Assembly (NCBI RefSeq): GCF_045037415.1
Contig: NZ_CP173440.1
DNA from: Escherichia coli
GTDB lineage: Bacteria > Pseudomonadota > Gammaproteobacteria > Enterobacterales > Enterobacteriaceae
Reading direction: 5' to 3' (one strand)
DNA: 64,000 nt
A model generated the notes under the pieces. The model was given only the letters and a program-made list of their open reading frames with translations. It had not been told where the DNA came from and made no database searches. A program made the position numbers and the translations under genes. Below, piece by piece: positions 27,772 to 29,339 of this stretch. Every line of letters begins with the position of its first letter. Within the stretch, counting starts at the first letter, position 1.

Positions 27772-28023
27772 AATGTCATCAATCACTACATCAAAACCTG
27801 TGAACATCTCCGAAATGTGATCACATTCTTCAAATTGCTGAGCGGTAGGGTATAGAGCATCGGGAACCTCAAGTTCAGCCAAACATGATTTACCAGACCC
27901 GGTTTCTCCAATAATAAATACAAGAGCTTTATCTTCTGTTTGCTTGAGATATTTAGTAATGACCCCCATGTTATCCTCAAGATTTTTCATTACTAAAGCA
28001 GGTAAGTTTTTATCAAGATTCAT
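27772..28023 (-). pseudogene. 5' fragment of a small P-loop NTPase gene truncated by IS110 copy A
   Basis: Walker A GETGSGKS; reading frame stops at the IS junction; the matching 3' half lies at 54635-54862. Confidence 0.65.
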
Positions 28024-28074
28024 GTTAAACCTCTTATTAAATTTACTGTTATAGAAAAATTGACAACACGGTAT

Positions 28075-28518
28075 TTATTCATTCTTCCAGTACGTTACAC
28101 CATCGTCACAGAGATACCCTGTCTGGTCAGGTTCACCTCCAATAAAAACACCAGCCTGACCTTTTAGTGAAACACCCACTCCCGTCGTGGTAGCACCTTC
28201 TCTTTTTTCTATAACTTTGCAATGCTCAGCTGCAAAGTCTCGCCAGTCCTGTTCCTTCTGGTCGCTTGCCAACACCAAAACCACCAGCACGGACATAACT
28301 CCACACAGGAGTGCAATGCCAGCCAGTCCGGAAGCAAATGTTGTCAGTAAAGAAAAGTCCTTAAACAAAACAGCGCCAAGAACCAATACCACAAGCAAGG
28401 CATAAAAAATTACTGCTCCGTTACTTGTTAATAATGACGTTCCCCAATCCCAAAAGGAATTAACAGTAATTTCACTCTGCGTCATAATTCTCACCTTCAG
28501 TTTAATGGAAATCTTCAA
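28075..28518 (-). CDS. hypothetical membrane protein
   Basis: two long hydrophobic segments; true start may be the internal Met at 28485. Confidence 0.4.
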   Translation of the reverse strand: MKISIKLKVRIMTQSEITVNSFWDWGTSLLTSNGAVIFYALLVVLVLGAVLFKDFSLLTTFASGLAGIALLCGVMSVLVVLVLASDQKEQDWRDFAAEHCKVIEKREGATTTGVGVSLKGQAGVFIGGEPDQTGYLCDDGVTYWKNE

Positions 28519-28922
28519 ACAAAGTCTAAAACTGTGCTGAATTGTTCTGCTTCAGGTAACATCGGCTTCAGCCCACTACGTCTTGCAATGCGAGTAACGA
28601 GTATTAATGTATCGGTCGTATCAGGCAAAGTTATTTGTTTGTGAGAAATTCGGATATCGTCTTCATTAACCATGGAAACATCTACATCGCCAACGCCAAT
28701 GGTGATTGAGAATGTCTTATCCGAACCGTAAAAAAGCACCAGCTCAGTTAATGGTCCACCAGCCCGATAACAAGTCAGGGACATTTTATGAATGCTGCCA
28801 ATATTTGAAATGCAGCTATCAATGAAGTCATCGGCATGCTCGTGCTGAATAAGACGATCTGTAGAGGTAACTCCATACAGAAACTTTAAGTGGTTACCAT
28901 TTGATTGATTGATACCTTTCAT
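28515..28922 (-). CDS. hypothetical protein
   Basis: 135-aa ORF, stop overlaps the next start. Confidence 0.4.
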   Translation of the reverse strand: MKGINQSNGNHLKFLYGVTSTDRLIQHEHADDFIDSCISNIGSIHKMSLTCYRAGGPLTELVLFYGSDKTFSITIGVGDVDVSMVNEDDIRISHKQITLPDTTDTLILVTRIARRSGLKPMLPEAEQFSTVLDFV

Positions 28923-28931
28923 TAATTAGCC

Positions 28932-29339
28932 TTAGGAGTTATTTTTGTTAAAAAGCATTGCCACTGAGCCTATACCTAAAAGGACGGTCATACCGTAAAG
29001 CAAATACGATGAAATATTGTAGAGATCAAAACCGAGTATGGTGCGTGCTTTTTCATCCGGCAAAACCACGGTAAATATAAGGTTCCACAAAGCAATTAAA
29101 ATTATCTGGGCACCAAATAATCTAGGCAACGCGCCAAGTTCTTCGAATGCAAACAAACACATAGTCACAACCAACACAACCATAATGCCAATGAATGAAC
29201 ATAATATCGCTGAAATCCCAAAACCAAACGCAGTAAACACAATTGATTCTTTGGCGGTTAATCCCGTGACTCCGTAGACCAATAGCACCATAATAATAAA
29301 AAAAAGAAAACCCTTTATAAATGCCATAAAATCACCCAA
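28932..29339 (-). CDS. hypothetical polytopic membrane protein
   Basis: 135 aa, about four hydrophobic helices. Confidence 0.4.
   Translation of the reverse strand: MGDFMAFIKGFLFFIIMVLLVYGVTGLTAKESIVFTAFGFGISAILCSFIGIMVVLVVTMCLFAFEELGALPRLFGAQIILIALWNLIFTVVLPDEKARTILGFDLYNISSYLLYGMTVLLGIGSVAMLFNKNNS

What the first reader, a model, noticed from the sequence alone, without database searches (positions are those of the whole stretch)
27772..29339. Paired small P-loop NTPases and a membrane-protein operon that originally sat directly upstream of the cas operon
Before the inversion, the minus-strand genes 28932-29339 (membrane), 28515-28922, 28075-28518 (membrane) and the split P-loop gene would have read in the same direction as, and immediately upstream of, the intact P-loop paralog (54929-55360) and csf1. 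Two tandem paralogous ~150-aa P-loop NTPases (Walker A GETGSGKS / GPSRSGKT) next to a type IV system are not part of the canonical locus and could be an accessory or regulatory module.
Basis: inference. Interest (0 to 1): 0.55.

Follow-up and report, generated by a model that had tools for sequence, protein, structure and literature searches.

The report
Plasmid-backbone ATPase genes beside CRISPR operon
The genes are real and did once sit directly upstream of the type IV-A3 CRISPR operon, but they travel with one Klebsiella plasmid family rather than with the CRISPR system, so they are most likely ordinary plasmid genes of unknown role and not a CRISPR accessory module.

Summary
The minus-strand genes M2, X and M1 are conserved. 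The P-loop gene PL1 is split by a 1327-bp IS4321-like element. A second, inverted IS copy in repFIB(Mar) allowed a ~25.5-kb inversion. The uninverted order M2-X-M1-PL1-PL2-csf1 is contiguous in 413 plasmids. PL1 and PL2 are true paralogs (30% identity).

The interpretation as a type IV-A accessory or regulatory module is not supported:
- Complete IV-A3 loci in six other genomic contexts (another Klebsiella plasmid type, Dickeya, Salmonella, Citrobacter, Pseudocitrobacter, K. quasipneumoniae) have none of these genes nearby.
- IncHI5-type plasmids keep ParB-like-M2-X-M1-PL1 after losing the cas genes.
- PL1 is broken at the same IS target in about a third of plasmids that carry it.
- Published work shows IV-A3 functioning from the five cas genes alone.

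PL2 is predicted to be a lid-less AAA+/STAND-like ATPase core. It is not kinase-like, and the NB-ARC, Csx3 and Cas10 labels rest on the Walker A motif only. The family is tiny: 21 hits among 1.84 billion representatives. X has no known fold. X alone recurs in Vibrio plasmids beside transfer genes.

Best reading: lineage-restricted backbone genes of IncHI1B/IncHI5 plasmids that neighbour the cas operon by descent. Interest is low to moderate.

The parts
28932..29327 (-). M2: small integral membrane protein. 131 aa from the ATG; the ORF extends to 29339 from a TTG.
   Evidence: ORF. About 4 hydrophobic segments. 40% identical orthologs in IncHI5-type plasmids. No family match.
28515..28922 (-). 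X: soluble 135-aa protein of unknown fold.
28075..28485 (-). M1: membrane protein with 2 TM segments and a conserved ~60-aa C-terminal domain holding two Cys (136 aa from the ATG).
   Evidence: ORF. Alignment A3 shows the strongly conserved C-terminus HCK..TTGVG..KG..G.F.G..P.QTGY.CDDG.TYWKN. Hydropathy scan. Mosaic, fast-diverging allele in L022.
27771..28023 (-). PL1, 5' fragment: codons 1-84, carrying Walker A GETGSGKS and Walker B VVIDD.
   Evidence: Identical to the N-terminal part of intact 162-aa PL1 in other plasmids.
54627..54862 (+). PL1, 3' fragment: codons 85-162 plus the stop codon.
   Evidence: Joined with 28023->27771 it gives an uninterrupted 162-aa ORF. The junction sequence matches L001 10560-10580.
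54947..55360 (+). PL2: intact paralog, 137 aa from the TTG at 54947 (the ORF opens at 54929). Walker A GPSRSGKT, Walker B DIIVDD.
   Evidence: RefSeq relatives are annotated as 137 aa 'NB-ARC domain protein'. AF2 model pLDDT 82 shows an AAA+-like core without a lid. dN/dS 0.28-0.36.
26444..27770 (-). IS4321-like element (IS1111 group of the IS110 family), copy A, 1327 bp.
   Evidence: Exact inverted repeat. Boundaries fixed against the uninterrupted target. The same element is annotated as 'IS110-like element IS4321 family transposase' in related plasmids.
53300..54626 (+). IS4321-like element, copy B, 1327 bp.
26421..26443 (+). First 23 nt of the repFIB(Mar) replication-initiator gene, separated from the rest of the gene (52234-53299, minus strand) by the IS insertion and the inversion.
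   Evidence: The reconstruction is in frame. The joined 300-nt junction is present uninterrupted at 100% identity in other plasmids, where it is annotated as a RepB family / IncFIB(Mar) replication protein.
29775..31016 (-). ParB-like 413-aa protein. It heads the conserved block ParB-like / 60-aa TM peptide (29518-29700) / M2 / X / M1 / PL1.
   Evidence: PHROG 1033 ParB-like, E = 1.2e-23. No significant Pfam domain. Syntenic with the block in IncHI1B- and IncHI5-type plasmids.
55423..56214 (+). [quoted passage not shown]
   Evidence: PADLOC Csf1_2_IVA3, E = 1.8e-122, and Csf1gr8, E = 5.5e-151.
55381..55396 (+). Inverted repeat TGCCATCAAAATGGCA in the 62-nt PL2-csf1 gap, followed by a T-rich stretch.
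   Evidence: Terminator-like and promoter-like hits lie here, but neither class is enriched over shuffles. An equivalent repeat with changed, still complementary arms sits upstream of csf1 in L015, L018 and L002.

Best explanation
M2, X, M1 and PL1 are lineage-restricted backbone genes of the IncHI1B(pNDM-MAR)/IncHI5 superfamily of large Klebsiella-group conjugative plasmids. PL2 is a lineage-specific tandem duplicate of PL1. The genes form a co-directional cluster downstream of a ParB-like gene, with gaps of 9-84 nt. [quoted passage not shown]

PL1 and PL2 are minimal, lid-less P-loop NTPases of the AAA+/STAND-like (ASCE) fold. They have a canonical Walker A and an hhhhD[DG] Walker B.

Inferred, not shown: they act as nucleotide-dependent switch or assembly subunits for the small membrane proteins M2 and M1 and the soluble protein X encoded just upstream, in a plasmid-related function such as maintenance, transfer-related envelope functions or plasmid competition. 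They are dispensable for CRISPR interference.

In this window PL1 was inactivated when an IS4321-like element inserted into a chance copy of its Tn21-inverted-repeat target (TTT|TCCGTTTT). A second copy landed in the same motif at the start of repFIB(Mar). Recombination between the two copies then inverted the ~25.5 kb between them and carried M2-X-M1 and the PL1 5' half away from PL2 and csf1.
For: Shown here:
1. Anatomy, paralogy, IS boundaries and reconstruction. The ancestral order is contiguous in 413 plasmids, and a 100% identical uninverted precursor exists.
2. No PL, X, M1 or M2 homolog was found by phmmer or profile HMM within +/-8 kb of complete IV-A3 loci in another Klebsiella plasmid type, Dickeya, Salmonella, Citrobacter and a Pseudocitrobacter chromosome. 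A K. quasipneumoniae locus with 89% identical Csf1 keeps only the last ~130 nt of PL2.
3. The block ParB-like-M2-X-M1-PL1 persists where the cas genes are lost or reduced to csf1 (L003-L006). By counts, about 97 non-Vibrio plasmids carry a distant (<60% identical) X, but only 20 carry a Csf2 of the matching 80-90% identity type.
4. PL1 is split exactly at the IS target in 170 of 509 plasmids, with PL2 and the cas genes still present in the examples inspected.
5. X alone has homologs (profile E = 2.8e-30) in 79 Vibrio plasmids, next to traF, a lytic transglycosylase and a coupling protein. These plasmids have no P-loop gene or CRISPR nearby.
6. The genes are real and constrained. Orthologs are 40-69% identical with intact ORFs. 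dN/dS is 0.14-0.36 for X and PL2.

From the literature:
- IV-A3 interference, silencing and complex formation were obtained in E. coli from the cas operon (cas8/csf1, cas6, dinG, cas5, cas7) under heterologous promoters. The purified complex contains only Cas8, Cas6, Cas5 and Cas7 (bioRxiv 10.1101/2023.06.23.546257; PMC12714566).
- IS5075 and IS4321 target Tn21-type inverted repeats and look-alike sites such as ureC (PMC8269217).
Against: - Within this plasmid superfamily a PL1-type gene lies immediately upstream of csf1, in the same orientation, in lineages as divergent as 43-69% PL1 identity (window, L018, L002; next to csf1 remnants in L003, L004 and L006). The link is therefore old and could reflect a lineage-specific functional tie.
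- PL2 is under purifying selection comparable to the cas genes.
- No transcript data were examined, so read-through from the cluster into csf1 cannot be excluded.
- The proposed partnership of the P-loop proteins with M2, X and M1 rests only on gene order. No biochemical function is shown for any of the five proteins.
- The counts of plasmids with the block but without cas are inferred from separate searches, not from a record-by-record intersection.
Confidence: 0.65

Rival explanations
1. PL1 and PL2, with or without M2-X-M1, are a lineage-specific accessory or regulatory module of the IncHI-plasmid clade of type IV-A3 systems. For example, they could tune cas expression, or act as AAA+-type loaders or regulators of the DinG helicase, without being needed for basal interference.
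For: - Immediate, co-directional adjacency to csf1 in several diverged lineages.
- Short intergenic gaps.
- PL2 dN/dS of 0.28-0.36, similar to Csf1 and DinG.
- The closest folds include helicase loaders and initiators: DnaC, IstB, DnaA, Hda.
- In IncHI1B-type plasmids the counts of X (435 at >=90%) and Csf2 (418 at >=95%) are nearly 1:1.
Against: - Absent from complete IV-A3 loci in six other contexts.
- Retained after cas loss in IncHI5-type plasmids.
- PL1 is disrupted in a third of carriers.
- PL2 was truncated when the cas locus moved.
- Heterologous activity and the purified complex do not need or contain these proteins (10.1101/2023.06.23.546257; PMC12714566).
- A conserved hairpin and promoter-like region lies between PL2 and csf1.
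Confidence: 0.1
2. The cluster is decaying, functionless DNA: hitch-hiking ORFs or pseudogenes in a variable plasmid region.
For: - PL1 is frequently IS-disrupted.
- PL1 dN/dS is up to 0.94 in one comparison, based on few substitutions.
- The family is extremely small: 21 hits among 1.84 billion representatives.
- No match in any domain library.
Against: - ORFs stay intact with conserved motifs across 40-69% amino-acid divergence.
- Walker A and Walker B are invariant in all full-length members.
- dN/dS is well below 1 for X, M2 and PL2.
- A confident compact fold is predicted for PL2.
- The recurrent PL1 break is explained by a chance IS target inside the gene and possibly by clonal spread, not by relaxed selection alone.
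Confidence: 0.1
3. The cluster is an independent defence, exclusion or plasmid-competition system: membrane proteins plus a small ATPase, co-located with CRISPR-Cas in a defence-island-like region of the plasmid.
For: - Composition of membrane proteins plus a P-loop NTPase.
- The best structural neighbour is the STAND ATPase core of Avs5.
- M1 shows a mosaic, fast-diverging allele.
- It neighbours a CRISPR-Cas system and umuDC.
Against: - No PADLOC model matches beyond Walker A noise: E = 0.004-0.05, 17-60 residues.
- The proteins lack effector or sensor domains.
- The family is confined to one plasmid group, unlike typical defence genes that move between contexts.
Confidence: 0.12

Closest known systems
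AAA+ / STAND ATPase cores (DnaA domain III, Hda, DnaC/IstB, Cdc6/ORC, NSF D2, Avs5 NTPase module)
   Different: - Only 137-162 aa. The chain ends after the fifth strand, so there is no C-terminal helical lid or sensor-2 domain.
- No recognisable arginine finger.
- The second Walker B acidic residue is not invariant (DG in P0022 and P0024).
- Sequence identity to all of these is 11-20%.
- No Pfam or NCBIfam model reaches significance beyond the Walker A segment.
Known CRISPR-associated ATPases and ancillary genes, including the Csx3-AAA and 'cas10' labels given to these genes in PMC6965323
   Same: Located next to a cas operon. Weak PADLOC hit to Csx3-AAA (E = 0.0044) for PL2.
   Different: - The hit covers only residues 16-59, the Walker A region.
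- There is no Csx3 or Cas10 domain.
- The genes do not follow IV-A3 into other genomic contexts.
- csf1, which that paper thought was missing, is present.
ureC::IS5075, target mimicry by IS4321/IS5075 (PMC8269217; Partridge and Hall 2003, cited there)
   Same: A 1327-bp IS1111-group element inserted in one orientation at a sequence resembling the Tn21-family terminal inverted repeat (...TTT|TCCGTTTT...). The same break recurs in many Klebsiella records: 170 of 509 for PL1.
   Different: The targets here are a plasmid P-loop gene and the 5' end of repFIB(Mar). The two copies then recombined to invert ~25.5 kb. I did not find these particular target sites described in the papers I read.

Membership tests
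Accessory or ancillary gene of type IV-A3 CRISPR-Cas | Co-occurs with IV-A3 cas operons across independent genomic contexts | tested here: not met
   No homolog by phmmer or profile HMM within 8 kb of complete IV-A3 loci L007/L008, L009, L010/L011, L013 and L014. Only a truncated PL2 3' end remains in L015. Homologs are present only in the IncHI1B/IncHI5-type clade.
Accessory or ancillary gene of type IV-A3 CRISPR-Cas | Lost or decays together with the cas genes | tested here: not met
   L003-L006 keep intact X, M1 and PL1 (plus M2 and the ParB-like gene in L004-L006) while the cas operon is absent or reduced to csf1 or a csf1 remnant. Conversely, PL1 is IS-disrupted in 170 of 509 plasmids.
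Accessory or ancillary gene of type IV-A3 CRISPR-Cas | Contributes to CRISPR function (expression, interference, adaptation) | not testable with these tools
   Published heterologous systems work without these genes (10.1101/2023.06.23.546257; PMC12714566). No deletion in the native plasmid has been reported in the papers read.
AAA+ ATPase | Walker A and Walker B motifs on an alpha/beta ASCE core | tested here: met
AAA+ ATPase | C-terminal alpha-helical lid domain with sensor 2, and an arginine finger for inter-subunit hydrolysis | tested here: not met
   The secondary structure ends at strand 5 (residues 123-128 of 137) with no helical bundle. No invariant arginine in alignment A5.
NB-ARC / STAND NTPase (the NCBI product name for PL2) | Significant match to the NB-ARC domain beyond the P-loop, with ARC subdomains and sensor repeats | tested here: not met
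   Pfam NB-ARC i-Evalue is 0.29 for the window protein, matching model positions 2-39 of 248. The best value among relatives is 2e-3. The protein is 137 aa with no further domains.
   NCBIfam and PHROG kinase hits have E = 0.14-0.36 and cover Walker A only. The top structural matches are AAA+/STAND. Thymidine kinase appears only at rank 23, aligning 101 residues.
IS4321/IS5075 (IS1111 subgroup of the IS110 family) | ~1.3-kb element with a 334-aa DEDD-type transposase, no flanking duplication, inserted at the Tn21-IR-like target | tested here: met
   1327 bp with a 334-aa ORF. Both copies sit at TTT|TCCGTTTT with no duplication. The identical element is annotated as IS4321 family in related plasmids. 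Target specificity is as described in PMC8269217.

The most novel reading that the evidence does not exclude
PL1 and PL2 are clade-specific, lid-less AAA+ modulators of the IncHI-plasmid type IV-A3 system. For example, they could control loading or recycling of the DinG helicase, or couple cas expression to a membrane or conjugation signal sensed by M2, X and M1. Their frequent IS knock-out would then change how the plasmid uses its CRISPR system.
Probability: 0.07. Interest if true: 0.65.

Novelty: new member of a known kind. Interest (0 to 1): 0.25.

Why it matters
Type IV-A3 systems on Klebsiella resistance plasmids are being studied as drivers of plasmid competition and as silencing tools, so it matters which neighbouring genes belong to the system.

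This analysis gives four practical results:
- The five-gene cas operon is the unit that moves and persists.
- The upstream 'NB-ARC', 'Csx3' and 'Cas10' labels are artefacts of Walker A matches.
- The upstream cluster is a separate, uncharacterised plasmid-backbone module.
- An IS4321/IS5075 target look-alike inside PL1 and in repFIB(Mar) is a recurrent source of gene disruption and large inversions in these plasmids. This is relevant for assembly and typing of IncHI1B/IncFIB(Mar) plasmids.

Specialists would not find this very surprising.

Tried and rejected
- NCBIfam, PADLOC, PHROGs and Pfam gave no family for any of the five proteins, only Walker A noise. Pfam on the ParB-like protein was uninformative.
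- A profile search of 1.84 billion representatives with a PL1+PL2 profile found only 21 hits, mostly fragments of the same genes. There were no distant relatives that would suggest a function.
- Word-indexed homolog searches for PL2 and X returned only close relatives.
- A scan of GTDB species genomes with the PL profile found nothing. The repeat gave 4 loci.
- A fold search for X found no significant match, so no function could be inferred.
- The promoter and terminator scan of the intact arrangement was no better than shuffled sequence, so operon boundaries remain unresolved.
- My first reconstruction of PL1 and repA assumed a 2-nt overlap at the repeat ends. It was wrong by 9 nt and was corrected against an uninterrupted plasmid.
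- Kinase-like, NB-ARC, Csx3 and Cas10 assignments were considered and rejected (see the membership tests).
- Purifying selection estimates for PL1 are based on too few substitutions to be decisive.
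Full report
- csf1 at 55423-56214 (PADLOC Csf1_2_IVA3, E = 1.8e-122);
- cas6, dinG, csf3 and csf2, running to 60397;
- an array from about 60476;
- a group II intron reverse transcriptase.

The finding's ORFs are all present. M2 lies at 28932-29339 (-), X at 28515-28922 (-) and M1 at 28075-28518 (-). An 84-codon P-loop ORF ends at an insertion sequence. PL2 lies at 54929-55360 (+). A hydropathy scan gives about four TM segments in M2 and two in M1, and none in X, PL1 or PL2.

**The IS copies and the inversion.**
- Two copies of one element form an exact inverted repeat, 26436-27773 and 53297-54634.
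- An uninterrupted relative reads GATGACATTT-TCCGTTTTGATGC at this point (L001). The element proper is therefore 1327 bp, at 26444-27770 (-) and 53300-54626 (+), inserted at TTT|TCCGTTTT without a duplication.
- Related plasmids annotate the same element as IS4321 family.
- Joining 28023->27771 to 54627->54862 gives an intact 162-aa PL1, identical to intact copies elsewhere.
- Joining 26421-26443 to the reverse complement of 52234-53299 restores the repFIB(Mar) initiator gene. This junction exists uninterrupted at 100% identity in other plasmids.
- Both IS copies therefore sit in the same 11-nt motif, one in PL1 and one at about codon 8 of repFIB(Mar). Recombination between them inverted the ~25.5 kb in between.
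- The precursor state, with the IS in PL1 but no inversion, exists at 100% identity in NZ_CP117746.1.
- The fully intact order ParB-like / 60-aa peptide / M2 / X / M1 / PL1 / PL2 / csf1... is seen in NZ_CP058870.1. The M2-to-csf1 stretch is contiguous in 413 PLSDB plasmids.

**Are the genes real?** Yes.
- PL1 and PL2 are paralogs: 30% identity, E = 4e-18.
- Orthologs of M2, X, M1 and PL1 in a second plasmid group (IncHI5-type, such as pYNKP001-dfrA) and in metagenomic contigs are 40-69% identical. Their ORFs are intact and many residues are invariant.
- Within the IncHI1B group, dN/dS is 0.14-0.23 for X and 0.28-0.36 for PL2. Csf1 and DinG give 0.10-0.33.
- The PL1 estimates (0.22-0.94) rest on about 10 substitutions.
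- M1 carries a mosaic allele in one plasmid.

**What the proteins are.**
- No curated family matches any of the five proteins. NCBIfam, PADLOC, PHROGs and Pfam give only weak hits on the Walker A segment.
- The RefSeq name 'NB-ARC domain protein' for PL2 rests on such a hit (Pfam NB-ARC i-Evalue 0.29 here, model positions 2-39 of 248).
- The 'csx3 and cas10 homologs' reported in the cas locus by Kamruzzaman and Iredell (PMC6965323) probably correspond to these upstream genes and rest on similarly weak matches. I did not confirm which genes that paper meant. The PADLOC Csx3-AAA hit for PL2 has E = 0.0044 and covers residues 16-59.
- A profile of PL1+PL2 searched against 1.84 billion cluster representatives found 21 hits, nearly all fragments or variants of the same genes. 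The family is tiny.
- An AlphaFold model of PL2 (pLDDT 82, pTM 0.80) has five strands alternating with helices and then stops.
It lacks the lid domain and a recognisable arginine finger. The second Walker B acidic residue is not invariant. That fits a nucleotide-dependent switch better than a processive motor, but this is inference.
- The window's PL2 has GPSRSGKT where most relatives have GPSGSGKT.
- X gives a moderate model (pLDDT 75) with no significant structural neighbour.

**The co-occurrence test, from the cas side.** Csf1 homologs at 54-64% identity lead to complete IV-A3 loci in five places: another Klebsiella plasmid type (L007/L008), Dickeya (L009), Salmonella (L010/L011), Citrobacter (L013 = L019) and a Pseudocitrobacter chromosome (L014). 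Neither phmmer nor a PL profile HMM run with filters off finds PL, X, M1, M2 or the ParB-like gene within 8 kb of any of them. The genes upstream of csf1 differ in each case: an HTH regulator, a YkuD-domain protein, T6SS-related genes.

A K. quasipneumoniae locus with 89% identical Csf1 sits in an unrelated neighbourhood. Its nucleotide homology to the window starts inside the last ~130 nt of PL2, leaving a Walker-A-less ORF. The unit that moved therefore begins just upstream of csf1.

**The co-occurrence test, from the other side.**
- IncHI5-type plasmids keep ParB-like-M2-X-M1-PL1, followed by csf1 only and then ISKpn28 (L004, L006), or by no csf1 at all (L005).
- A metagenomic contig has X-M1-PL1, a 52-codon csf1 stub, then umuD (L003).
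- One K. grimontii contig shows the complete IncHI5-type state: ParB-like-M2-X-M1-PL1-csf1-...-dinG-...-csf2, with no PL2 (L018).
- Another contig has a PL1-like gene directly before csf1 (L002).
- PLSDB counts agree. X is found in 611 records: 435 at >=90% identity and 176 at <60%, of which 79 are Vibrio.
- Csf2 is found in 473 records: 418 at >=95% but only 20 in the 80-90% band that matches the IncHI5-type.
- These counts are not a record-by-record intersection, so they are approximate.
- In Vibrio parahaemolyticus plasmids of 60-70 kb, X alone (profile E = 2.8e-30) lies beside traF, a lytic transglycosylase, H-NS and a coupling protein. There is no P-loop gene or CRISPR there.

**PL1 is often broken.** The 201 nt around the IS target are split exactly at the target in 170 of 509 plasmids. 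PL2 and the cas genes are retained in the cases inspected.

**Published experiments.** Interference, silencing and complex formation were obtained in E. coli from the cas operon (cas8/csf1, cas6, dinG, cas5, cas7) under foreign promoters. The purified complex contains only Cas8, Cas6, Cas5 and Cas7 (10.1101/2023.06.23.546257; PMC12714566). The survey of type IV neighbourhoods in PMC7038947 does not mention these genes in the passages I searched.

**Conclusion.** The cluster belongs to the backbone of one plasmid superfamily and neighbours the cas operon by common descent. Three findings fit this:
- it outlives the cas genes;
- it is absent wherever IV-A3 sits elsewhere;
- it is not carried along when the cas locus moves.

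PL2 is a duplication specific to the IncHI1B(pNDM-MAR) branch. What the cluster does is not shown. My working model is a small membrane-associated module (M2, M1, X) with a lid-less AAA+-like switch NTPase, serving a plasmid function. It rests only on gene order, predicted topology and fold.

The adjacency of PL1 to csf1 is old, and PL2 is constrained. A clade-specific modulatory role therefore cannot be excluded; I give it about 0.1.

A conserved inverted repeat (GCCAT-N4-6-ATGGC, window 55381-55396) lies about 25-35 nt upstream of csf1 in the window, L015, L018 and L002. Its arms differ between lineages but stay complementary. It may be a terminator, attenuator or operator that separates the cluster from cas expression. 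The simple promoter and terminator scan was not informative.

**Novelty and interest.** The proteins are an undescribed, very narrow family of minimal P-loop NTPases plus three orphan proteins, so they are a new member of a known kind rather than a new kind of system. The main value is corrective: it fixes the annotation and the system boundaries. A side result is target mimicry by IS4321/IS5075 that causes recurrent PL1 and repFIB(Mar) disruption and inversions. Interest is 0.25.

Noticed in passing
window 26444-27770 and 53300-54626; targets at 27771-27773/54627-54634 and 26436-26443/53297-53299: Both IS4321-like copies sit in the same 11-nt motif, TTT|TCCGTTTT, which resembles the Tn21-family inverted-repeat target. 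One motif lies inside PL1 and the other at about codon 8 of repFIB(Mar). The PL1 site is broken at exactly this point in 170 of 509 plasmids. The repFIB(Mar) site is also split in some records.
   Followed up: partly
L017 (NZ_CP019049.1) 3908-6166; query positions 3095-3146: About 390 IncHI1B/IncFIB Klebsiella plasmids match only the last 52 nt of csf1. In the one inspected (pRJA166b), an IS5 element abuts this stub, followed by cas6 and a broken dinG. This is a decayed IV-A3 remnant lacking the whole upstream cluster.
   Followed up: partly
window 55381-55396; L015 ~7960-7980; L018 ~7955-7980; L002 ~620-650: An inverted repeat GCCAT-N4-6-ATGGC lies about 25-35 nt upstream of the csf1 start and is followed by T-rich sequence. 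It is kept in four diverged lineages, with arm changes that preserve complementarity. It could be an operator, attenuator or weak terminator for the cas operon.
   Followed up: partly
L022 3356-3766 versus L001 9855-10265 (orthologs of window 28075-28485): M1 is only 78% identical between two plasmids whose flanking genes are 95-97% identical, with both dS and dN raised. This points to a recombined or mosaic allele. The conserved part is the C-terminal domain.
   Followed up: no
L024 (NZ_CP064043.1) 5986-6372: X has 35-37% identical homologs in 79 Vibrio parahaemolyticus plasmids of ~60-70 kb. They sit in a transfer-gene neighbourhood (traF signal peptidase, lytic transglycosylase, H-NS, coupling protein, MobC) without M1, M2 or P-loop partners.
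   Followed up: partly
window 55047-55070 (PL2 Walker A): The window's PL2 reads GPSRSGKT, whereas most relatives read GPSGSGKT. The large cluster P0001 reads GTSRSGKT. Whether the G-to-R change affects nucleotide binding is unknown.
   Followed up: no
L015 7675-7929: A K. quasipneumoniae IV-A3 locus (Csf1 89% identical) lies among PTS/GntR/LysR-type genes. Upstream of csf1 it has an 84-aa ORF that keeps a PL2-like Walker B region (NVIIDDMAFFDI) but no Walker A. The cas unit moved with a truncated PL2.
   Followed up: yes
window 60476-61564 and 62101-63588: The long '+' ORFs over 60476-61564 are read-through of the CRISPR repeats. A group II intron reverse transcriptase/maturase lies just downstream of the array, followed by umuDC in related plasmids.
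   Followed up: no
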